Part shown: one piece after another, positions 202-28,147 of the stretch
How the letters are laid out: every line of letters starts with the position of its first letter
Numbering within the stretch: position 1 is the first letter of the stretch
Source: Nanobdellota archaeon
GTDB lineage: Archaea > Nanobdellota > Nanobdellia > Woesearchaeales > SKGA01
NCBI GenBank assembly: GCA_051819745.1
Contig: JBNJGO010000004.1
Span: 1 to 49,003 of the forward strand
Reading direction: 5' to 3'
Length of the DNA stretch: 49,003 bases
Position numbers and translations under genes: made by a program
Notes under the pieces: model-generated
What the model was told of the DNA's origin: nothing
Database searches by the model: none
Seen by the model: the letters and a program-made list of their open reading frames with translations, nothing else

Positions 202-753
202 TTAATCCAACTGTTTGAAAAAAGTTTTTTTCAAAGGGAAACATAATTGTTTATTCCTGAGAACATCAACTTCATCCCAAATATATTTTGAAAATAAATC
301 AGATCTCAAATCAGAAATTAATTTCTCTACAACAGCATCATCAAAAAATCGTTTCATAAGTTCTTCAGCAACGATATGAACTGTTGCTTCTAATCTTATT
401 TCATTTATACTATTTTTAGATAAAAATAAATCATAAAAATTATTTTCAAAAAATATATTATGAGTTAATAAGCGAAAAAAATCAAAAAAAATTTTATTAT
501 TCTGTTGATTAACATTTAATAAATTAGGTCTCGATATCGAAGGATATGTACCTAAAATTAACCAAAAAGAATAAGAATTATTTTTAAAATTCAAACCAGA
601 CAGTTTATTCAAATTCGAAATTAAATCAGTTTGATATTTATTTACAAATTTATTTAGCACAAGCAATTTCGATTCAAAAAAAGTTTCATCAAATTTTAAG
701 TGTAAAAAACCATCCACTAAAGGAAAGGATGTTTCAAAAGTAATACTAATCAT
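202..753 (-). CDS. RiPP-cluster accessory protein; HExxH-degenerate paralog of 2696..3250 (family not recognised)
   Basis: ORF 202..762 starts at TTG. The first ATG, at 753, overlaps the stop of the SagB-like gene (ATGATTAG, 746-753). It is collinear by eye with the 184-aa ORF 2696..3250: ITFETSFPL/VTFQTSYYL, FWLILGTYPSISRPNLLNV/VWLFHGWQPSTSTPLLLNT, FFDFFRLL/FFNLVHEL, EIRLEATVHIV/YIELEAIVNTV. It has THNIF where the paralog has HELIH. A T7 run follows the stop on the coding strand. Confidence 0.6.
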   Translation of the reverse strand: MISITFETSFPLVDGFLHLKFDETFFESKLLVLNKFVNKYQTDLISNLNKLSGLNFKNNSYSFWLILGTYPSISRPNLLNVNQQNNKIFFDFFRLLTHNIFFENNFYDLFLSKNSINEIRLEATVHIVAEELMKRFFDDAVVEKLISDLRSDLFSKYIWDEVDVLRNKQLCFPLKKTFFKQLD

Positions 754-1480
754 ATTTCCCAATGACCCCCATATAAATTATTTTTTCATCATCCGGAAAA
801 TCTAAGAACTCATTTATCCCATCATCTGTGAAACCACCAATCGTACAACAACCTAAATTCAAATTTTCTGCAACTAAATACATGTTTTGAGCTAAATGAC
901 CTGCATCTAAATAAACATAACGAAAAGATCTAGCACCATATTTTATTTGGGCCCTGTCATAAGGACTTGAAATCATAATTAAAACAGCAGAATCCAGAAC
1001 CATATCTTGCGAGATAAATTTATTTAAGGTAGGTATTTTAATTTCTTTGATTAAAAGCTCTAAAGAATGAGATAAGACATCATAATGATAAATACCTGGT
1101 TCGACACCTACACAATTTTGTACAGCAACATATATTTCAATTGGAAATCTTGCTCCTGCTGAAGGATAAGCTCGTCTAGTATCATCTAATGACTTTACGG
1201 AATTTGAATTTGTAATTCCTGCTGAAAAAAATAACAAGGTTGATAATTCTTTAATTGTAATCGGTTTTTTATTAAATTCTCTACGAGATTTTCGTTTTAA
1301 TATCAGTTCGAATAAACTATCGCTTTTAATATTCGGTTCAGGTAAATTAATTTTTTTAAATCGAGGGTATGATTTAAAATAAATTTTAACCCAGGATTTA
1401 GGAGTAAATTTAGATGAAGCTCCATCTAGAGAAAAGATGTTTGTTTTTTCGTGTAATTCTTTAAATGTTGTCATTTTCAT
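746..1480 (-). CDS. SagB-type (nitroreductase-fold, FMN) dehydrogenase of azole RiPP pathways
   Basis: 244 aa. Nitroreductase/SagB-like motifs: KRKSRREF, RRAYPSAGARFPIEIYV, YLDAGHLAQNMYL, GCCTIGGF...DDEKIIYMGVIGK. The ATG overlaps the YcaO stop (ATGA at 1477-1480). Confidence 0.85.
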   Translation of the reverse strand: MKMTTFKELHEKTNIFSLDGASSKFTPKSWVKIYFKSYPRFKKINLPEPNIKSDSLFELILKRKSRREFNKKPITIKELSTLLFFSAGITNSNSVKSLDDTRRAYPSAGARFPIEIYVAVQNCVGVEPGIYHYDVLSHSLELLIKEIKIPTLNKFISQDMVLDSAVLIMISSPYDRAQIKYGARSFRYVYLDAGHLAQNMYLVAENLNLGCCTIGGFTDDGINEFLDFPDDEKIIYMGVIGKYD

Positions 1481-2703
1481 ACAAATGGATGTGGAATCTT
1501 ATTTAATTTTTGTTTTTTAATTCGAGGACCAAAAAAATATTTAAAATGTTCAAATAAATATAGTGGATGTAATTCAGGAATAATTGTTTTATATACAAAA
1601 AAACCAGCATTTCTTGTTTCTTTAGAGGTTAAATTTTTTGTAAAAACAGTAAAATTTTTTTCAGACAGTAAATTCAAAACATTTTTGAGATAATCAGATT
1701 TAGAAATTTTAATTTTTAAATTTTCAATCGATGTTTTTCGTGGAGTATAAAGAATAAAATCAAGATGTTTAATCATAGATGATGAAGACCAAAATAAACC
1801 TCTATCCTCAATAGAACTCATATTTTTTTCATCTTTAATTGATTTTCCTTCAATTAATTGGTATCTAATCCACAATCTAGTATGTTGTGCTTCAAGAATC
1901 GCCCCTTTTGTAGCTAACAAGACATCCCAATCAGTTTTAGTTCCTATAGAAATAGCAGGTCCAACACCACTCCTATCAACAAGCACACATAGAATTGTTG
2001 GAATTTTAATATCTGTTGTTATATCAAAAAAATAAGGTTCTAAAAAATATCGCTTCATTCGAGAAATTATCTCATTTAAATCAGAATCATTTATAGAATC
2101 AATGTTTATTTTAATAGGTGACCTTTTTTCCAAATAAGTTAACATAAATGAATCTCGTTCTATAAGTTCACAGATTCCTTTGTAAATTGCTTCTTCTTTG
2201 GTTGATGCGCACGCAGCACCATTACTTATTGGTAATCTTAATACTCTTTCTTTATTTGAATAAGGGACATAAATTAATTGCGAAGGTAAATAAATATCTT
2301 TATTATTTAATATATCAAAAACAGAAATCCAATTAAATTCTTCATCATGTAACTCTTGCTTCAAAGAATAAGTTATTTTTTGGTTATTAACAAAACGCAC
2401 AGGATCAATAGCATTATCCAATTGATTAAAATTTTTTTTAATACCTATTTCAAAATTTGAGGATAGTTCAAATCGCTCAATACATTCTCCCATTGCTTTA
2501 ATTTGTGCTTTGTTATCAGTTAAAGAAAGTCCAGAACCTTGATTATCATCATCTTTTATAAAATCAGGTAAACCATTCACATTCATAAACGCAGTATACT
2601 GAAAAAACTTAGGCTCATCTGTAAATTGAAATGATTTCTGAAGTGAAGAAATAATTTTATTTTGTTCAAGCATTGAACGCATTCTACTAAGCGTATTATC
2701 CAT
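1477..2703 (-). CDS. YcaO-family cyclodehydratase
   Basis: ORF 1477..2715 starts at TTG. The first ATG, at 2703, overlaps the upstream gene's stop (ATGGATAA, 2696-2703). YcaO hallmarks: GSGLSLTDNKAQIKAMGECIERF, SNGAACASTKEEAIYKGICELIERDSF, and a Pro-rich C-terminus (KIPHPFV). At about 408 aa it is a YcaO domain only, with no fused E1-like domain. Confidence 0.9.
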   Translation of the reverse strand: MDNTLSRMRSMLEQNKIISSLQKSFQFTDEPKFFQYTAFMNVNGLPDFIKDDDNQGSGLSLTDNKAQIKAMGECIERFELSSNFEIGIKKNFNQLDNAIDPVRFVNNQKITYSLKQELHDEEFNWISVFDILNNKDIYLPSQLIYVPYSNKERVLRLPISNGAACASTKEEAIYKGICELIERDSFMLTYLEKRSPIKINIDSINDSDLNEIISRMKRYFLEPYFFDITTDIKIPTILCVLVDRSGVGPAISIGTKTDWDVLLATKGAILEAQHTRLWIRYQLIEGKSIKDEKNMSSIEDRGLFWSSSSMIKHLDFILYTPRKTSIENLKIKISKSDYLKNVLNLLSEKNFTVFTKNLTSKETRNAGFFVYKTIIPELHPLYLFEHFKYFFGPRIKKQKLNKIPHPFV

Positions 2704-3250
2704 ATGTTTCACCAAACCATTTTGAAAAAGAAATATTTTTACGTTTAATGAGAGTATTTATTTCTCTCGTACGAATCCAAACATATTTATAAAAACCACC
2801 GAACTCAGCATGAAAAGATAATTCTTCAAGATCATCTTTGGAGAATATTTTTTTAAGAACTCGTATTAAAACCGTATTCACGATTGCTTCAAGTTCAATA
2901 TAATCCCATTCTCCAAGATTATTTTTAATTGGAATATACATAATATTTTGATGAATTAATTCATGAACAAGATTAAAAAAACAAAAATTTAACTGCTCAC
3001 CATAAGTGTTTAAGAGTAAAGGTGTTGAAGTACTTGGTTGCCATCCATGAAATAACCAAACATCAATTTTTTTAATAGGCCATCTCACACCCGTTTCTGT
3101 TTCAATTGCTTTTAACAAATAAGATTTATGTTTGAAAAATAAATTTTTCAATTTTTCTAAAAAAGCATTAAGTTTTTCTCTATTATAAGGAACACAAATT
3201 ATCTTTGATTGCAGATAATAACTTGTTTGAAAGGTTACTTTAACGACCAT
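2696..3250 (-). CDS. Putative HExxH metallopeptidase-like protein (RiPP-cluster accessory; family not recognised)
   Basis: 184 aa. ATG at 3250 is preceded by AGGT. HELIH (aa 96-100) is encoded at 2951-2965. It is a paralog of ORF 202..753 and lies between the precursor-like ORF and YcaO. Confidence 0.6.
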   Translation of the reverse strand: MVVKVTFQTSYYLQSKIICVPYNREKLNAFLEKLKNLFFKHKSYLLKAIETETGVRWPIKKIDVWLFHGWQPSTSTPLLLNTYGEQLNFCFFNLVHELIHQNIMYIPIKNNLGEWDYIELEAIVNTVLIRVLKKIFSKDDLEELSFHAEFGGFYKYVWIRTREINTLIKRKNISFSKWFGETYG

Positions 3251-3292
3251 ATTAATTACCTGAAAATAAATTAAATAAAAAAAAAAGAAAAA

Positions 3293-3493
3293 TCAATCCA
3301 CTTTTGATTCGAGCATATCTTCGGTAACTTTACAACCATAACAGCCACCACCACAAGAACGACAACCAGAACATTTTGATGCATTCGAAACAGCATCATA
3401 TGGTTTTAGAGGACTTTCTTTCATTGAATCGGTATCCAATTTGTAAGATAAATTTGGCTTATAAGAGTTTTTTAAAGTATAAACTCCATTCAT
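3293..3493 (-). CDS. Candidate RiPP precursor peptide (Cys-rich core CSGCRSCGGGCYGC)
   Basis: 66 aa. The ATG is preceded by GGGGG 7-11 nt upstream and by an AT-rich TATA-like tract. The N-terminal ~40 aa are leader-like with no Cys. The core has five Cys at aa 41-54 (nt 3332-3373) interleaved with Gly/Ser, followed by an acidic tail VTEDMLESKVD. It lies immediately 5' of the modification genes. Confidence 0.65.
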   Translation of the reverse strand: MNGVYTLKNSYKPNLSYKLDTDSMKESPLKPYDAVSNASKCSGCRSCGGGCYGCKVTEDMLESKVD

Positions 3494-3762
3494 TTTAAAA
3501 CCCCCGACGGAAACCCATCAAAGTAAATTTTAATTATAATATATTTAAATCTTTGGTTGATTTTTGGAAATAAAATTTAAAATTAAAAAACTTAAGAACC
3601 AATCAAAAACAATAAATAATTATTATTTCTTATTCATAAAATTTTTTTAATGTATATTTATCATAATTCATCATAAATAAAACAAGACATAAGAATATAA
3701 GCAATACAAAAATAAAAATAAAAAAATAAACCAATCTTAAAAAACAGCATCTAATCAGTCAG

Positions 3763-5991
3763 TTAACCATAATAACTCGGTTTCTGATCTTTCATCTGTT
3801 GACCTTTTGCCGAAGAGAACTTATCTTTAAGTTCTTGATACGAATCTTGGATTTCCTTAGAAGCACTTGGTGTAACTTTTTTCAAGGCTTTATTGAATGA
3901 TGACATTGAAATACTGTTAGTATCAATATTTTTACGCATTTCAATCATGACAGCTTCACGACAAACAGCTTCAATATCAGCACCGACATACCATTGCGTG
4001 TTATTAACTAACGTGTCGATATCAACATCTTTATCCAATTTCATACCATCCAAATGAACTTTAAAAATAGATCTTCTCGCTTCAGCATCAGGAGCATTAG
4101 CGAGAACAATACGATCAAAACGACCAGGTCTTAGTAGCGCCGTGTCCATAACATCAGGCCGGTTCGTTGCCGCGATGACAACGACGTCATTGAGTTCTTG
4201 AAGCCCATCGAGTTCAGTAAGTAATTGGTTAACTGCATTCATACCACTTTCGCTGGACGCGTTTTGTTCAACTTTACGATTCGAAGTGATCGCATCAATC
4301 TCATCAATGAAAATGATGGAAGGAGAAACTTGACGTGCTTTTTCAAATAATTTCTTGACAAGCTGAGGTGTTTCATTCACCCATTTGGAAAGCAATTCAG
4401 GACCTTTTACAGCAATAAAATTTGCTTCGCTTTCCTTAGCAACAGCCTTTGCAAGCATCGTCTTTCCGGTTCCAGGAGGACCATACAGTAAAATACCTTT
4501 TGGAGGCGTTACACCAAGACGTTGAAATTTATCTTTGTGTTTAAGAGGCCATTCGACAGCTTCAATAAGATCTTGTTTGACTTCTTTCAAACCACCAATA
4601 TCATCATATTTGACATTTGGCGTTTGCACAAGAACTTCTCTCATCGCGCTTGGGCGAACAGATTTGAGAGCTTCAAGCAAATCTTTATGAGATATACTGA
4701 CGTTTTCCAACACTTCTTGAGGAATAGAATCTTCTTCGCTGAGCTTTAGATCAGGAAGTAACCGTCTTAAGACAACCATTGCAGCTTCTTTGCAAAGAGC
4801 TGAGAGATCCGCACCAACAAAACCATGAGTGATACGAGATATTTTTTCAAGATCAACATCATCAGATAAAGGCATGTTTCTTGTGTGAATCTTGAGAACG
4901 TTTTTACGACCGTCTACTGAAGGAACACCAATTTCAATCTCACGATCAAAACGACCAGGACGGCGAAGCGCCTGATCAATAGAATTAACAATATTTGTCG
5001 CGGCCATAACAACGACTTTTCCTCGAGTATTCAAACCATCCATAATCGCAAGTAATTGCGCAACAACTCTCCGTTCAACTTCACCTTTAGATTCTTCACG
5101 TTTAGGAGCAATAGCATCAATCTCATCAATGAAAATGATGGAAGGAGCATTCTCTTCAGCGTCTTCAAAAATCTTTCTAAGATTCTCTTCAGATTGGCCG
5201 TAAAATTTACTCATTATTTCAGGACCATTGATAACATGAAAATTACTATTTGTTTCGTTAGCTACCGCTTTTGCAAGAAGGGTCTTACCAGTTCCAGGGG
5301 GACCATGAAGTAAAACACCTTTTGGAGGTTCAATCCCAAGACGTTCAAAGATTTCAGGATGTTTGAGTGGAAGCTCGACCATTTCACGAACTTTTTTCAC
5401 TTCATCACTAAGACCACCAATGTCCTCATAGGAGACTTCAGGAACTACAGGCTCTTCTTTGAGTTCGACAGCTTCGTTTAAGAATTCCACATCAGTATCT
5501 TTAGTGACAACAACAGGAACTTTTTTTGGATCTGTAGATACAGTAATAAACTTGATATCACCAAGACCAAAGCGAGAAAAAGTACCTCCAAGGGAGATAA
5601 GATCACCTTTTTGAACAACACGAGAATTTAGTGCTCGATTGAAAAATACGGGATTATCAACCTTTATCTTGATACCTTCTCGTGCGGGAGCGATAGTCAC
5701 TTTATGAGCTTCTTTTACATCCGCTTTTTCAACGACAACATATTCTCCAATACTAGTTTTTGCATTTCGACGGACTAAGCCATCCATACGAATAATGTTA
5801 AGCCCAATATCTCCTGGAAGAGATCGTTCAACAAGAACTGTCGTTGATCGCTCGCCAGAAATAGTTACAAAATCTCCGGGATTAACATCTATTTTTCTCA
5901 TGTAAGAGCTATCCATACGAACAATGCCTTTATTGACATCTTCTTGGATAGCTTCAACAACTTTCAAATGAATTTGTGGTGTTTCAGTCAT
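3763..5991 (-). CDS. cdc48: CDC48/VCP-like AAA+ ATPase (two AAA domains)
   Basis: 742 aa. It has a double-psi-barrel-type N domain, two Walker A motifs (GPPGTGKT twice), two Walker B motifs (IIFIDEID twice), and RPGRFDR twice. AGGTGAT precedes the ATG. Confidence 0.95.
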
Positions 5992-8513: not shown

Positions 8514-10253
8514 TTATCGCTTCTTTTTGTACAAAAGTAACAACAAAGACAACATCACAAGAATAGAAAGAGAAGAACCAAATATAAATCCATTCCAAAA
8601 AGAACGATCAAAAGAAAGAGAAAAAGTTGATTCTTGGGGAAAATACCCTGAAACATCACTAAGGTGAAGAGCATATTCGGTAAATAACAAAGCAGAAACA
8701 GGATCCTCTTGAGCGAGGACTTGAGAATACTCATAATAACTATACCCTAAAATAGGAAATCGATCCAAGGCAATTGAAGAAGAGAGTATTTCTGCTGTGC
8801 GATTTAATTTTACATCAAGAAGAGGTTGATTTGCAGATTCGGGCAAAGTAAGTGTCGAGATAAATAATTCAGAGTGAGCTTTTGCCTTGGAGGCTTTAAA
8901 CAATGCTAGAGCATATTCCTCGTCATTAAAATACTGTTGAGCTTGATTAATATTTTCGGAAACACTTGATAATAATGAAGGAGCAACCATCGTACGCAAT
9001 AACGTATAACGGACTTCAGCATTATGAATTTCTTCAAGGGAAGCACTTTTCAGATGAGGAGTGTCAAGTTGGAGCGAGGGACCGTCAAGACCAAAAAATG
9101 AAGACCATACAACCGCACTATACTGTCTTTCCAACGCATAAGCTAATAGAGAGGTAGAAATGTTGCTCGTGTTTATTTCATCAAGATACTGTTTTGATTC
9201 TAATAATCGTTCCTTGACAACAACATACGCTTCAAGATCAGAGAACGTAGAAAGAGGTTTATTGTCAACAATAGATTCACTGCGCTCTATGGCCGAATAA
9301 AGAACATCATAGGATTGTTTGAGTTCTTCTTGTGAAGTGTTTTGAAGAAGTAATTGTCGCAAGCGAAGATTAGCAGTATAACAATATGAAGCTCTCGAAT
9401 ACCATTTTTTGTTTGAAGAAGCATTTTTTGAATTGTTAAAAAAATCACGAGCGTACGTGAATAAGGAAGAATTAGACTCAGGTACTTGAGATAACAAGGA
9501 CTGGGTTCGATTACAAAGCAAATCAGATGTGTGTTTCATCGTTGAAGAATATGCTTTTGAAGGGGAAGGAGCATCGTATTGAGAAAGCTCATAGGAACCA
9601 TTTGATGCAATTGCCAACGCTTCACGAACAGTAGATATAGGAAAAATATCGACAGATACATTTTTTGAAAGTTGTGTGAGATTAAGTGGTTGAGAAGTGA
9701 CGTTTGACGAGTTTGAAAGAGAGTGATTTTTTAGAGGAATAAAAGAAAATTTAGGGACAAACACAGTATTTATCGAAGAGGAATGATCTGCTGCTGAAAT
9801 TTTTTCTTTAACACCGGAAACAGGAGTTATTACACCGCCAGAACTAATAGCTCCAGTCATCGCTATCGAATCAGGAAAAGGAATGTCTTCAAGAAGAGCG
9901 AGCGTGAGTAAAGCAGTAGCCCCGCCCGCACTTGGACCACCAATTATTGAAGAATCGGCTTTTATCGTGTAAAAAAAATCAAAGGAAGAACAATCCTGAG
10001 AAGAAAGGTCACAAGCTATTTCATTAGCAATACGAGTGGCAGTTTGAGTGTCAAGTTGAGAGGAAGGAAATGATTGGATAAACACATCACCACTCCCTCC
10101 AGATTCCATTCTCAATGAAAGACTCGCAGTACCACCTATTTGCGTACCATTATCAAGAATTTTTACAGAAAGAAGCGAAACGCTATCGCTGACCGAAAGT
10201 ACAGGTAACGCGCATAAGACCAGAAATATGAGTAGTAAAAGTGGAAATCGCAT
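8514..10253 (-). CDS. Lon-protease-domain (S16) protein with signal peptide and C-terminal TM anchor; no ATPase domain
   Basis: 579 aa. The N-terminus is signal-like (MRFPLLLLIFLVLCALPVLSV). S16 catalytic-region motifs: IIGGPSAGGATALLTLALL and MTGAISSGGVITPVSGVKEKISAA. There are many N-x-S/T sequons. The C-terminus has a TM helix plus KKKR. Confidence 0.75.
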   Translation of the reverse strand: MRFPLLLLIFLVLCALPVLSVSDSVSLLSVKILDNGTQIGGTASLSLRMESGGSGDVFIQSFPSSQLDTQTATRIANEIACDLSSQDCSSFDFFYTIKADSSIIGGPSAGGATALLTLALLEDIPFPDSIAMTGAISSGGVITPVSGVKEKISAADHSSSINTVFVPKFSFIPLKNHSLSNSSNVTSQPLNLTQLSKNVSVDIFPISTVREALAIASNGSYELSQYDAPSPSKAYSSTMKHTSDLLCNRTQSLLSQVPESNSSLFTYARDFFNNSKNASSNKKWYSRASYCYTANLRLRQLLLQNTSQEELKQSYDVLYSAIERSESIVDNKPLSTFSDLEAYVVVKERLLESKQYLDEINTSNISTSLLAYALERQYSAVVWSSFFGLDGPSLQLDTPHLKSASLEEIHNAEVRYTLLRTMVAPSLLSSVSENINQAQQYFNDEEYALALFKASKAKAHSELFISTLTLPESANQPLLDVKLNRTAEILSSSIALDRFPILGYSYYEYSQVLAQEDPVSALLFTEYALHLSDVSGYFPQESTFSLSFDRSFWNGFIFGSSLSILVMLSLLLLLYKKKR

Positions 10254-11391: not shown

Positions 11392-11787
11392 TCAGCGAGA
11401 TTTCATCAAAGCATGAGGTTGTTTAATAGGAGTAAGTTCCGCAGTTATTCCCGCACCAGAGCTTGAACAAGCACCTTGTTGAAGTAAAACATTATTTCCT
11501 TCAGTAGTTATACAACACGATCCTGAACATTCTCCTTCAGCCAAGATACTATAATCGTACTGCCCACAAGTACAGCCAACCACATCACCACCATCGTCAG
11601 TGATGCGACTCAAGCTAGCAGTAGTTTGCTTAGCATCTCCCACCAAATTCTCATCCACTTGAGTTTGAGGAGTCATCTGAGCAGAACCGCCAGTATTGAC
11701 CATCATTACTAAACTAATCACTCCAACCACAGCGACAATAGCCACCAAAGAAAGAAGTGCAAAACTATTATTATTTTCTTTTGCCAT
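11392..11787 (-). CDS. Small membrane-anchored Cys-rich protein (single CC...C module)
   Basis: The ORF starts at GTG 11799. The ATG at 11787 is preceded by GAGGTG. It has an N-terminal TM helix and then VGCTCGQYDYSILAEGECSGSCCITTEGNNVLLQQGAC, which resembles the repeat module of 12409..13743. Confidence 0.55.
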   Translation of the reverse strand: MAKENNNSFALLSLVAIVAVVGVISLVMMVNTGGSAQMTPQTQVDENLVGDAKQTTASLSRITDDGGDVVGCTCGQYDYSILAEGECSGSCCITTEGNNVLLQQGACSSSGAGITAELTPIKQPHALMKSR

Positions 11788-11906
11788 TATAAAAAACACC
11801 TCACATGTTTATAAAACATACTGAGAACAACACCATTTATAAGTGTTTCGCCTAAAAAAAGAAAAAGAAAAGAAAAAAATATTCTTAACTCCAAATAATA
11901 AGAAGT

Positions 11907-18820: not shown

Positions 18821-18907
18821 AAAAAAAAGATGCGAGGGAGGATAAACTCACTAACGCTCGAGACCCTCACTCGACAAGAAAAAAAGAAAAAAAAGATGCG
18901 AGGGAGG
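18821..18907 (-). repeat. Perfect 21-nt direct repeat (18821-18841 and 18887-18907) duplicating the tRNA-Leu 3' end plus its oligo-T tail
   Basis: AAAAAAAAGATGCGAGGGAGG occurs twice, 66 nt apart. On the tRNA strand this reads CCTCCCTCGCA + TCTTTTTTTT. Confidence 0.8.
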
Positions 18908-19021
18908 GGATTTGAACCCCCGAACCCACTAAGGGACAGGATAACCTTTCAGCCGACAACAAGAACATATTGTCGAACTGTCTTAAGTCCTGCGCATTTG
19001 ACCAGACTTTGCTACCCCCGC
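18897..19021 (-). tRNA. tRNA-Leu(UAA) with canonical 37/38 intron (about 39 nt, 18943-18981)
   Basis: I folded the cloverleaf by hand. Acceptor GCGGGGG/CCCTCGC. 3-bp D stem. Anticodon stem CAGGA/TCCTG with loop CUUAAGA. Long variable arm. T arm GGGGG-TTCAAAT-CCCCT. Discriminator A. The intron contains a CGACAA/TTGTCG hairpin. TTTTTATAAATA lies about 30-40 nt upstream. Confidence 0.85.
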
Positions 19022-27813: not shown

Positions 27814-27826
27814 ATAAAAAAGAAAT

Positions 27827-28127
27827 GGCGCGCGCGAAGGTGGACTGCAACAGACACTTCCAGTGAACCCTGAAGATTCCTCCACTCTGCAACCCTTCAA
27901 ACACCGTAACAACAGCGTATGGCTGCTCCCGTCAAGGCCTCTCTGGCACATCGCAAAAGATATTTTTTCCGACGTGTGACCAGGTTGACTGGCGTTACGA
28001 TCAAGAAGGACAGAGCATCGACAGGCACAACAGGACTGAAAGCACCTGCGAGCCGCCCTTCACGCTTCAGCCCGCCCAACGACCCATTTGACGTTATAGG
28101 TGAGGGTCAACCACCCGGCCTAGCCAT
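27827..28127 (-). ncRNA. Signal recognition particle (7S) RNA, about 300 nt
   Basis: This is a GC-rich island in AT-rich DNA. The minus-strand 5' end, GGCUAGGCCGGGUGGUUGACCCUCACC, resembles archaeal SRP RNA 5' domains. It contains GACGGGAGCAGCCAUA, which matches the helix-8 (G)GAAGCAGCC motif. A TATA box lies about 25 nt upstream and an oligo-T (CCAUUUCUUUUUUAUUU) follows the 3' end. The ends are approximate to within about 5 nt. Confidence 0.7.
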
Positions 28128-28147
28128 TAACGAGAAAACACGACATT

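What the first reader, a model, noticed from the sequence alone, without database searches (positions are those of the whole stretch)
3293..3493. Candidate precursor peptide with core CSGCRSCGGGCYGC and an acidic follower
The 66-aa ORF has a Cys-free leader of about 40 aa (MNGVYTLKNSYKPNLSYKLDTDSMKESPLKPYDAVSNASK). This is followed by five Cys within 14 residues, spaced by Gly/Ser/Arg/Tyr (nt 3332-3373), and then a 12-aa acidic tail (KVTEDMLESKVD).

It has its own ribosome-binding site (GGGGG) and lies directly 5' of the modification genes. The C-x2-C-x2-C-x3-C-x2-C spacing would give a densely thiazol(in)e-decorated segment. The same spacing could also bind metal or be a substrate for other Cys chemistry. 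A C-terminal follower is less common than a simple leader-core layout.
Basis: partly seen in the sequence, partly recalled or inferred. Interest (0 to 1): 0.7.

Follow-up and report, generated by a model that had tools for sequence, protein, structure and literature searches.

The report
Archaeal azole-peptide precursor gene, conserved
The 66-codon gene is real and is most likely the substrate peptide of a compact thiazole/oxazole peptide pathway in tiny DPANN archaea, a known kind of pathway built in an unusual way, and no such archaeal product has been isolated in the papers I could search.

Summary
ORF 3493..3293 (-) encodes a 40-aa Cys-free leader, the core CSGCRSCGGGCYGC and the tail KVTEDMLESKVD, preceded by GGGGG, 7 nt and ATG.

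It is a real gene. I found 13 further distinct homologues in DPANN archaeal contigs (Nanoarchaeota and Pacearchaeota MAGs, plus metagenomes). Wherever the contig extends far enough, the gene sits beside a YcaO, a SagB-type dehydrogenase and a small HExxH protein, while the flanking genes differ. Synonymous changes far outnumber non-synonymous ones (core pS 0.1-0.76, pN 0-0.12).

The core (13-14/14) and follower (9-12/13) are much better conserved than the leader (7-19/41). At longer range the core varies: Cys is replaced by Ser, the core expands to 10 Cys, or it becomes CTKCSTCTKCGGKCSKCS. A short leader motif (I/V-E-S/D-P-L/I) persists.

Best reading: this is a linear azole-containing peptide (LAP/TOMM) precursor, similar in style to microcin B17. 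The pathway is unusual in three ways:
- The YcaO has no E1-like or Ocin-ThiF partner.
- An active mini-zincin is paired with a catalytically dead paralogue.
- The precursor carries a conserved follower.

Related YcaO/nitroreductase/peptidase clusters were already reported in CPR bacteria. No chemistry was tested here. I rate it a new variant of a known kind, of moderate interest.

The parts
3293..3493 (-). Precursor peptide gene, 66 aa plus stop. Leader 3374-3493, core CSGCRSCGGGCYGC 3332-3373, follower KVTEDMLESKVD 3296-3331.
   Evidence: ORF list. Homologues P0002-P0005 and loci L008-L012, L015, L017, L021 and L023. pN/pS of 0.03-0.49 over core plus follower.
3404..3424 (-). Leader motif M24-K-E-S-P-L-K30. 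The family consensus is hydrophobic-x-[ED]-[SDNG]-[PA]-[LIV], and it is the only leader element shared across the family. Putative recognition sequence.
   Evidence: Alignment A3 of 12 precursors, with consensus LxDxIExPxxL. That it is a recognition site is inferred.
3501..3505 (-). Shine-Dalgarno-like GGGGG, 7 nt upstream of the ATG.
   Evidence: Sequence. Same arrangement in L001, and G-rich boxes in L007, L008 and L023.
3273..3292 (-). Oligo-T tract (T5-C-T10-A-T3 on the coding strand) directly after the stop codon. Possible partial archaeal terminator between the precursor gene and the enzyme genes.
   Evidence: Sequence. T-rich tracts lie at the same place in L001, L012 and L023. Function is inferred from general knowledge of oligo-T termination in archaea and was not tested.
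2696..3250 (-). 184-aa mini-zincin with HELIH (residues 96-100), 18 residues, then E119-L-E121. Predicted leader and/or follower peptidase.
   Evidence: No Pfam or NCBIfam hit. AF2 model with pLDDT 93.6. All top Foldseek PDB hits are M1 gluzincin catalytic domains, including the lanthipeptide peptidase EryP, but they are weak (E 0.085-1, TMq 0.36-0.5). HExxH is kept in copy 1 at all 11 loci examined.
1477..2715 (-). YcaO cyclodehydratase (412 aa from the TTG start; the source aa from the ATG at 2703). The YcaO domain stands alone, with no fused or adjacent E1-like or Ocin-ThiF partner.
   Evidence: PF02624 E 2e-48. TIGR03604 (SagD family) 194.6 bits, full length but below the 219 cut-off. AF2 pLDDT 93.9. 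Foldseek top hits are LynD (E 4.8e-23, TMq 0.78), MusD, MJ1094, TruD and McbD. The C-terminus PHPF[VIL] is invariant in the clade.
746..1480 (-). SagB-type FMN dehydrogenase (azoline to azole), 244 aa.
   Evidence: TIGR03605 E 4.9e-43 and PF00881. PDB relatives are BmdC, the thiazoline oxidase CyaGox and McbC. The Lys-Tyr motif (IKYG) is conserved across loci.
202..762 (-). 186-aa paralogue of the mini-zincin in which HExxH is replaced by RLLTH. A conserved pseudo-peptidase and putative non-catalytic partner.
   Evidence: 27% identity to the 184-aa protein, E 2e-10. The catalytic Glu is lost in copy 2 at all 7 two-copy loci.

Best explanation
The ORF encodes the precursor of a linear azole-containing peptide (LAP/TOMM) made by a compact DPANN-archaeal pathway.

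Proposed mechanism:
1. The 66-aa peptide is translated from the ATG at 3493. An oligo-T tract after its stop codon may keep precursor mRNA in excess over enzyme mRNA (inferred).
2. The stand-alone YcaO uses ATP to cyclodehydrate Cys41, 44, 47, 51 and 54, and probably Ser42 and Ser46, to azolines. It is guided by the leader motif (M-K-E-S-P-L-K) and/or the conserved amphipathic follower. It does not use a canonical RRE-bearing partner (inferred).
3. The SagB-type flavoprotein oxidises the azolines to thiazoles and oxazoles. The C-S and S-C dipeptides could give fused bis-heterocycles, as in microcin B17 (inferred by analogy).
4. The HExxH mini-zincin trims the leader and perhaps the follower. 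It may work as a heterodimer with its catalytically dead paralogue, in the manner of TldD/TldE (speculative).
5. The product would be a polyazole of about 14-15 residues. Its target is unknown.

Shown here: the gene is real, conserved and under purifying selection, and it is always linked to these enzymes. The enzymes carry the signatures of azoline and azole formation.

Not shown: any modification, cleavage site, recognition mode or biological activity.
For: Gene reality:
- 13 further distinct homologous precursors with the kernel SCGGGC[YH]G[CS].
- Purifying selection in this frame: core pS 0.10-0.76 against pN 0-0.12.

Linkage to the enzymes:
- At every locus whose contig extends far enough, the peptide gene lies immediately upstream of a YcaO plus SagB dehydrogenase plus HExxH protein. 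The flanking genes differ: CDC48 here, a MopE-like gene in L001, r-protein/Trm112 genes in L003, transposase fragments in L008, toxin-antitoxin genes in L021.

Enzyme signatures:
- YcaO: the best NCBIfam match is the TOMM SagD family (194.6 bits, against 93 for the McrA-thioamidation family). The closest fold is the cyanobactin heterocyclase LynD. The Mg/ATP Glu motifs align. The invariant C-terminal PHPF[VIL] resembles the PxPxP motif associated with azoline-forming YcaOs (PMC12338566).
- Dehydrogenase: TIGR03605, relatives McbC, CyaGox and BmdC, conserved Lys-Tyr motif (the KY residues are catalytic in McbC according to PMC8442711).

Core behaviour:
- Cys is replaced by Ser at two core positions in L011 and L021. 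This keeps the residue cyclisable but removes a metal ligand.
- The core expands to 10 Cys in L015 and differs in L023, while the leader motif is kept.

Precedent:
- Sister YcaOs in CPR bacteria sit in YcaO/nitroreductase/M16-peptidase clusters. Such clusters have been described as LAP clusters (PMC7298704).
Against: - No E1-like (C) or Ocin-ThiF (F) partner and no recognisable RRE is present in the operon or among the large ORFs of the 49-kb window. Most characterised azoline-forming YcaOs need one; the bottromycin YcaOs are the known exceptions (PMC8442711).
- The TIGR03604 score is below NCBI's cut-off.
- By sequence, the best PDB hit is the thioamide-forming MJ1094 (E 1e-13), ahead of LynD (E 4e-9).
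- The core is almost invariant among many loci, which is atypical for antibiotic RiPPs and would also suit a structural or metal-binding role.
- No transporter or immunity gene is linked.
- The peptidase assignment rests on a motif and on weak fold matches.
- No expression or mass-spectrometry data exist.
Confidence: 0.78

Rival explanations
1. The peptide is the YcaO substrate, but the chemistry is backbone thioamidation or amidine formation rather than azol(in)e formation.
For: The best sequence match in the PDB is MJ1094, the TfuA-independent archaeal McrA thioamidation YcaO. No E1-like partner is present. Stand-alone YcaOs are known to make thioamides and amidines (PMC8442711).
Against: A SagB-type dehydrogenase with the catalytic Lys-Tyr motif is translationally coupled to the YcaO at every locus examined. 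The core is built of Cys and Ser. Cys-to-Ser swaps are tolerated. The NCBIfam SagD-family score is twice the methan_mark_1 score. No TfuA or sulfur-donor gene is present. The closest fold is LynD.
Confidence: 0.07
2. The modified peptide is not a short secreted antibiotic. It is a cell-associated molecule, such as a metallophore, cofactor-like peptide or symbiosis factor, and it keeps part of its leader or follower. The near-invariant core would reflect a conserved partner.
For: The core is 13-14/14 identical and the follower 9-12/13 identical across loci whose leaders share only 7-19/41 residues. No exporter or immunity gene is linked. The hosts are DPANN archaea, which as a group have reduced genomes and putatively symbiotic lifestyles (abstracts of PMC12153355 and PMC10936187).
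Against: An intact HExxH peptidase is conserved in every cluster examined, which argues that processing occurs. The core does diversify in L015, L023 and L011, as expected for a bioactive RiPP. This reading differs from the best explanation only in the fate and role of the product.
Confidence: 0.1
3. It is an unmodified Cys-rich metal-binding mini-protein that merely neighbours the YcaO genes.
For: The CxxCxxCxxxCxxC spacing could chelate Zn, Cu or Fe. In L001 the upstream gene has a MopE copper-binding domain.
Against: Two of the five Cys are Ser in L011 and L021. The number of Cys varies from 3 to 10. Adjacency to YcaO and SagB holds at every locus long enough to show it, while other neighbours, including the MopE-like gene, are not conserved.
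Confidence: 0.04
4. It is a spurious ORF in AT-rich intergenic DNA.
For: The ORF is short. Cys-dense six-frame windows are not rare in this window. The source's gene call differs from the ORF (48 aa).
Against: There are 13 further distinct homologues, excess synonymous change in this frame, and a conserved RBS or promoter box and start codon.
Confidence: 0.01

Closest known systems
Microcin B17 system (McbA precursor; McbBCD synthetase; TldD/TldE leader peptidase)
   Same: A Gly/Ser/Cys-rich core containing S-C and C-S dipeptides. In MccB17, G-S-C and G-C-S become fused oxazole-thiazole and thiazole-oxazole units. Both have a YcaO (McbD-like) plus an FMN dehydrogenase (McbC-like, KY motif). 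In MccB17 the leader is removed by a metalloprotease made of one active and one related inactive subunit (PMC6722960).
   Different: There is no McbB (E1-like, leader-binding) homologue. The peptidase pair belongs to a different, much smaller HExxH family and is encoded inside the cluster. The precursor has a conserved C-terminal follower. There are no McbEFG export or immunity genes. The host is an archaeon. The precursor has no detectable sequence homology to any curated family (no NCBIfam or Pfam hit).
LAP clusters of CPR bacteria (YcaO + nitroreductase + peptidase; Sharrar et al. 2020, PMC7298704)
   Same: The same clade of compact ~400-450-aa YcaOs, with the N-terminal DEPKF and C-terminal PHPF motifs. 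The same YcaO-SagB gene pair without a C protein, a small precursor gene immediately upstream, and a metallopeptidase in the cluster.
   Different: The CPR clusters seen here use an M16 peptidase and Pro/Cys-rich precursors (L019, L024). The archaeal clusters use the mini-zincin, with or without a dead paralogue, and the SCGGGCYGC-type core with a follower.
Bottromycin pathway (follower peptide; partner-independent YcaOs)
   Same: The YcaO works without an E1-like or Ocin-ThiF partner, and the precursor carries a C-terminal follower (PMC8442711). My own recollection, not checked here, is that the bottromycin follower is the recognition element.
   Different: This precursor also has a 40-aa N-terminal leader with a conserved motif. 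There are five or more cyclisable sites rather than one. A SagB dehydrogenase is present. There is no second YcaO, radical-SAM methyltransferase or macroamidine logic.
Archaeal TOMM families of Cox et al. 2015 (haloazolisins, thermoacidophisins; PMC4603692)
   Same: Archaeal YcaO-based clusters with predicted Ser-rich or Tyr/Gly-rich precursors, all uncharacterised.
   Different: Haloazolisins have fused C-D cyclodehydratases and thermoacidophisins have discrete C proteins, whereas no C protein is present here. The precursor table held as text for that paper contains no GGGCYG-type core and no Nanoarchaeota entry.

Membership tests
LAP / TOMM precursor peptide (RiPP class) | Short ribosomal peptide with a Cys/Ser/Thr-rich core, encoded next to the modification genes | tested here: met
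   A 66-aa ORF with 5 Cys and 2 Ser in 14 residues, 42 nt upstream of the operon. The same holds at related loci.
LAP / TOMM biosynthetic cluster | YcaO-domain cyclodehydratase (D protein) | tested here: met
   PF02624 at 165.8 bits against a cut-off of 25.7. The full-length TIGR03604 match scores 194.6 bits, below the 219 cut-off. The fold matches LynD, MusD, TruD and McbD.
LAP / TOMM biosynthetic cluster | E1-like (C) or Ocin-ThiF-like (F) partner carrying a RiPP recognition element | tested here: not met
   None of the operon proteins hits such a family. The YcaO model consists of the YcaO domain only. None was found among 20 large ORFs of the window. The rest of the genome could not be searched.
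LAP / TOMM biosynthetic cluster | FMN-dependent SagB/McbC-type azoline dehydrogenase with the Lys-Tyr motif | tested here: met
   TIGR03605 at 146.6 bits against a cut-off of 78.4. PDB relatives are McbC, CyaGox and BmdC. The KY motif is conserved.
LAP / TOMM precursor peptide | Leader with a conserved recognition motif, removed by a protease | tested here: inconclusive
   A weak shared motif, [ED]-[SDNG]-[PA]-[LIV], is present, and an HExxH protein is conserved in every cluster examined. Binding and cleavage were not tested. The peptidase fold match is weak.
LAP / TOMM | Azol(in)e heterocycles actually present in the mature product | not testable with these tools
   This needs mass spectrometry or NMR of the expressed peptide.
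Azoline-forming YcaO subclass | Pro-rich C-terminal PxPxP motif | tested here: inconclusive
   The clade ends in an invariant P-H-P-F-[VIL], that is PxPxΦ with the last Pro missing. The motif's significance is taken from PMC12338566.
Thioamide-forming YcaO/TfuA systems | An adjacent TfuA, or McrA as the substrate | tested here: not met
   There is no TfuA in the operon. TIGR03266 scores 93 bits against a cut-off of 365.
Gluzincin metallopeptidases (HExxH + downstream Glu) | HExxH on the active-site helix, a third ligand Glu about 18-20 residues downstream, and a zincin fold | tested here: inconclusive
   HELIH-x18-ELE is conserved. The confident AF2 model has the expected beta-sheet followed by two helices. 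The Foldseek top 50 are all M1-type peptidases, but with E of at least 0.085. There is no Pfam hit. Distant family members give sub-threshold SprT-like, WLM and DUF zincin hits.
Curated bacteriocin/TOMM precursor families (NCBIfam, Pfam) | A match to a curated precursor HMM | tested here: not met
   Zero families matched, at E up to 0.1 in NCBIfam and 0.01 in Pfam.

The most novel reading that the evidence does not exclude
The azoline-forming YcaO of this CPR/DPANN clade may work without any E1-like or RRE partner. Substrate recognition would instead come from the conserved C-terminal follower and/or from the mini-zincin and its catalytically dead paralogue acting as a new peptide-binding scaffold. 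The nearly invariant polyazole product would be a DPANN factor aimed at a conserved target in the host or in competitors.
Probability: 0.2. Interest if true: 0.7.

Novelty: new variant of a known kind. Interest (0 to 1): 0.45.

Why it matters
According to a 2025 survey, only lanthipeptides have so far been characterised among archaeal RiPPs (PMC12144867). I found no paper in the searchable library that describes an azole peptide from DPANN archaea. This cluster is very small: five genes in about 3.3 kb, with one defined precursor. That makes it a practical target for heterologous reconstitution.

If the YcaO really cyclises five to seven residues without an RRE-bearing partner, it would be a minimal cyclodehydratase, useful for peptide engineering. 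It would also extend the known ways in which RiPP enzymes recognise their substrates, here through a follower and/or a pseudo-peptidase scaffold. A strongly conserved polyazole in ultra-small archaea, a group thought to be largely symbiotic, would also be a concrete candidate molecule for host or competitor interaction.

On the other hand, the class (LAP) and the sister clusters in CPR bacteria are already known, so the result refines existing knowledge rather than overturning it.

Tried and rejected
- Pfam and NCBIfam scans of the peptide and of both 184/186-aa proteins found no family.
- A PDB sequence search with the zincin profile gave only noise.
- The sigma-70 promoter and hairpin-terminator scan showed no enrichment, and it does not apply to an archaeon.
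- A scan of viral contigs for the core motif found no relative.
- The genome-collection scan for the core motif confirmed only one locus out of 58 pattern matches, so the family is rare in species-representative genomes.
- I searched the supplementary files of Cox et al. 2015 that are held as text (including the precursor table) for the core: absent.
- Literature searches for DPANN or Nanoarchaeota LAP precursors found nothing specific.
- Cys density as a statistic turned out not to discriminate.
- I considered a radical-SAM (SCIFF or ranthipeptide-like) substrate and rejected it, because no rSAM gene is present in any archaeal locus.
- I considered the mini-zincin family to be a dedicated YcaO partner and rejected that for the wider family. 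A distant member (P0070, locus L018) sits beside FtsE/FtsX-like genes on a contig that also encodes RF-1, with no YcaO in view. That contig does end soon after, so a YcaO further on cannot be excluded.
- The small hydrophobic ORF 3630..3734 (-) upstream of the precursor is not conserved in L001 and is probably spurious.

Full report
**1. Observation**

It has a 40-residue Cys-free N-terminal part, the 14-residue segment CSGCRSCGGGCYGC (nt 3373-3332), the tail KVTEDMLESKVD and a TGA stop. On the coding strand a GGGGG run (3505-3501) lies 7 nt before the ATG.

Directly after the stop there is a T5-C-T10-A-T3 tract (3292-3273). The next gene starts at 3250.

Cys density on its own is weak evidence. 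Thirteen six-frame 14-aa windows in this 49-kb window have at least 5 Cys, against a mean of 1.6 in first-order Markov simulations, and most of them are off-frame readings of real genes. The case therefore rests on context and conservation.

**2. Context**

Four co-directional, overlapping genes follow the ORF:
- A 184-aa protein with no Pfam or NCBIfam hit (2696-3250).
- A YcaO (1477-2715; PF02624 E 2e-48). Its best NCBIfam match is the TOMM SagD family, TIGR03604, at 194.6 bits. The match is full length but below the 219-bit cut-off.
- A SagB-type dehydrogenase (746-1480; TIGR03605 E 4.9e-43).
- A 186-aa paralogue of the first protein (202-762; 27% identity, E 2e-10).

Upstream lies a CDC48 gene. 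The window is archaeal. It contains an archaeal SRP RNA, a 125-nt tRNA match that ARAGORN does not report (consistent with an intron), and archaeal housekeeping genes such as MCM and RNA polymerase subunit D. The cluster has 23-30% G+C, against 32-40% in the next 5 kb.

**3. The ORF is a real, conserved gene**

A protein search found four homologues outside the window (P0002-P0005). Motif scans of genome and metagenome collections, plus look-ups of neighbouring genes, added more:
- L008: a Nanoarchaeota MAG.
- L009-L011: JGI metagenomes.
- L012-L014, L015-L016 and L017.
- L021: a Pacearchaeota genome.
- L023.

In total there are 13 distinct precursors besides the window's own.

Wherever the contig is long enough, the peptide gene lies immediately upstream of a YcaO plus SagB dehydrogenase plus a 165-216-aa HExxH-family protein. 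The flanking genes are unrelated between loci: a MopE-like gene, ribosomal-protein/Trm112 genes, transposase fragments, toxin-antitoxin genes, an S8 peptidase.

Codon comparisons among six close loci show many synonymous and few non-synonymous differences. In the core, pS is 0.10-0.76 and pN is 0-0.12. Over core plus follower, pN/pS is 0.03-0.49.

The 66-aa start is supported in two ways. SYKPNL(S/T)Y is conserved upstream of the source's shorter 48-aa call. L001 also has an identical GGGGG-7nt-ATG arrangement.

**4. Pattern of conservation**

The core is 13-14/14 identical, the follower 9-12/13, and the leader only 7-19/41.

Across the whole family the invariant kernel is S-C-G-G-G-C-[YH]-G-[CS]. 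The core does change at longer range:
- L011 and L021 have Ser in place of two of the Cys (CKGSRSCGGGCYGS).
- L015 has an expanded core with 10 Cys.
- L023 has CTKCSTCTKCGGKCSKCS.

The one leader element shared by all is a short motif, hydrophobic-x-[ED]-[SDNG]-[PA]-[LIV]. Here it is M-K-E-S-P-L-K, residues 24-30. A follower of 8-37 residues is always present, usually beginning with Lys or Arg. From visual inspection, not a formal test, it often contains an acidic, Leu-containing stretch.

Cys-to-Ser exchange keeps a residue cyclisable but removes a metal ligand. This argues for heterocyclisation and against metal binding.

**5. The enzymes**

*YcaO.* The AF2 model is confident (pLDDT 93.9). 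Its best matches are the cyanobactin heterocyclase LynD (E 4.8e-23, TMq 0.78), then MusD, the M. jannaschii thioamidation YcaO, TruD and McbD. The whole protein is accounted for by the YcaO domain, so there is no fused recognition domain. The Glu-rich Mg/ATP motifs align. All clade members end in P-H-P-F-[VIL] and share an N-terminal F-[TN]-D-E-P-K-F motif. A C-terminal PxPxP motif is associated with azoline-forming YcaOs (PMC12338566).

*Dehydrogenase.* It is related to McbC, the thiazoline oxidase CyaGox and BmdC. It keeps the Lys-Tyr motif, which is catalytic in McbC (PMC8442711).

*Missing partner.* No E1-like or Ocin-ThiF partner was found in the operon or among 20 large ORFs of the window. 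This defining feature of canonical TOMM synthetases is not met. Partner-independent YcaOs are documented for bottromycin (PMC8442711).

**6. The 184-aa and 186-aa proteins**

The 184-aa protein has HELIH at residues 96-100, then 18 residues, then E119-L-E121. Its AF2 model is confident (pLDDT 93.6) and shows a small beta-sheet followed by the two motif helices.

The 50 listed Foldseek PDB hits are M1-type peptidases: IRAP, ERAP1/2, aminopeptidase N and other M1 aminopeptidases, and the lanthipeptide peptidase EryP. They are weak, however (E 0.085-1.2, TMq 0.27-0.5). The profile found no PDB relative by sequence.

A profile search found 289 representatives of this ~180-200-aa family. Distant members give sub-threshold hits to zincin families: SprT-like, WLM and DUF3267. 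One distant member (P0070, locus L018) lies beside FtsE/FtsX-like genes on a contig that also encodes RF-1, with no YcaO in view. The wider family is therefore not dedicated to YcaO clusters.

In the seven two-copy loci, copy 1 always keeps HE[LI][IV]H and copy 2 always lacks the catalytic Glu. The four single-copy loci keep HExxH.

I read copy 1 as the leader and/or follower peptidase, and copy 2 as a conserved pseudo-enzyme. The pair parallels TldD/TldE, the active and inactive paralogous subunits that remove the microcin B17 leader (PMC6722960). This parallel is an analogy and does not imply homology.

**7. Relatives of the YcaO**

The YcaO clade includes proteins from Nanoarchaeota, Pacearchaeota and Promethearchaeota MAGs. 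It also includes CPR bacteria: Levybacteria, Woesebacteria and Patescibacteria.

The CPR loci L019 and L024 have a Pro/Cys-rich small ORF, a YcaO, a nitroreductase and an M16 peptidase. This is the architecture reported as LAP clusters in CPR genomes by Sharrar et al. 2020, who found 110 such clusters (PMC7298704).

I found no paper describing the archaeal version or this precursor family. A 2025 survey states that only lanthipeptides have been characterised among archaeal RiPPs (PMC12144867).

**8. Mechanism proposed**

1. The precursor is translated from its own RBS. In other loci a TTTAAA-type box sits 24-32 nt before the ATG, which suggests leaderless transcripts.
2. The oligo-T tract after the stop is also present in L001, L012 and L023. 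It may act as a leaky archaeal terminator that raises the precursor-to-enzyme ratio (inference).
3. The YcaO cyclodehydrates the five Cys, and probably Ser42 and Ser46.
4. The SagB protein oxidises the azolines to azoles. The C41-S42 and S46-C47 dipeptides could form fused bis-heterocycles, like the G-C-S and G-S-C sites of microcin B17 (PMC6722960).
5. The mini-zincin trims the ends.

Every step after gene identity and enzyme family is inferred. Confidence that this is an azole-peptide precursor is about 0.78. Confidence in the peptidase and pseudo-peptidase roles is lower.

**9. Rivals**

- Thioamide or amidine chemistry, about 0.07. It is disfavoured by the ever-present SagB dehydrogenase, the Cys/Ser core and the absence of TfuA.
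- A cell-associated or partly processed product rather than a secreted antibiotic, about 0.10.
- An unmodified metal-binding peptide, about 0.04. It is disfavoured by the Cys-to-Ser exchanges and the variable number of Cys.
- A spurious ORF, about 0.01 or less. This is refuted.

**10. Verdict**

The feature is a new precursor family and a variant architecture within a known RiPP class. The variant features are a partner-less YcaO, a mini-zincin with a dead paralogue, and a leader-core-follower layout with an unusually conserved core. Sister clusters are already known from CPR bacteria. Interest is moderate (0.45). It would rise if partner-independent, follower-guided or scaffold-guided cyclodehydration were demonstrated.

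Noticed in passing
L019:3738-3953 and L024:3763-3972 (CPR bacterial contigs): Sister YcaO/SagB clusters in CPR bacteria carry quite different Pro/Cys-rich small ORFs (for example ...AQPCKPPGPPVPCRPPTCAPQPCKCTSPCVCSTPRCRVSEIRTRR) and an M16 peptidase instead of the mini-zincin. These ORFs too have a short charged C-terminal tail after the last Cys.
   Followed up: partly
L008:1-300 and 3640-3945 (Nanoarchaeota MAG073 contig JAYEMU010000037.1): The whole five-gene cluster is flanked by ORFs that look, from reading the translations only, like a DDE-type transposase fragment and a TnpB-like zinc-ribbon ORF. Together with the low G+C of the cluster in the window (23-30% against 32-40%), this hints that the cluster moves horizontally.
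   Followed up: no
window 3293-3493 versus the source's gene call P0001: The source's own gene call for this ORF starts at codon 19 (Leu, read as the initiator Met) and gives 48 aa. Homologue conservation and the RBS support the 66-aa ATG start. Likewise, P0002 in L001 is probably called 9 codons too long, from a TTG.
   Followed up: yes
window 18897-19021 (-): Rfam reports a 125-nt tRNA match that ARAGORN does not report. This is consistent with an intron-containing archaeal tRNA.
   Followed up: no
window 27822-28130 (-): A full-length archaeal SRP RNA (104 bits) confirms that the contig is archaeal.
   Followed up: no
window 11392-11799 (-): A 135-aa ORF with an N-terminal hydrophobic helix and a Cys/Gly/Ser-rich C-terminal part (…GCTCGQYDYSILAEGECSGSCCITTEG…). 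It may be a secreted or pilin-like Cys-rich protein and is unrelated to the cluster.
   Followed up: no
window 8514-10253 (-): A 579-aa protein with an N-terminal hydrophobic (signal-like) segment, a Lon-type S16 protease domain only (no AAA domain) and a C-terminal hydrophobic (anchor-like) segment. This is an unusual membrane-associated or extracellular Lon-like protease.
   Followed up: no
L003, L009, L011, L021 versus window, L001, L007, L008, L014, L015, L023: Loci with a single HExxH protein (encoded on the opposite strand) have long followers of 25-32 aa. Loci with the active plus dead paralogue pair have short followers of 8-15 aa. This may reflect co-evolution of the follower and the peptidase pair, but the loci are not phylogenetically independent.
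   Followed up: partly
window 3630-3734 (-): A 34-aa hydrophobic ORF (TTG start) lies in the AT-rich spacer between CDC48 and the precursor gene. It has no counterpart upstream of the precursor in L001 and is probably spurious.
   Followed up: partly
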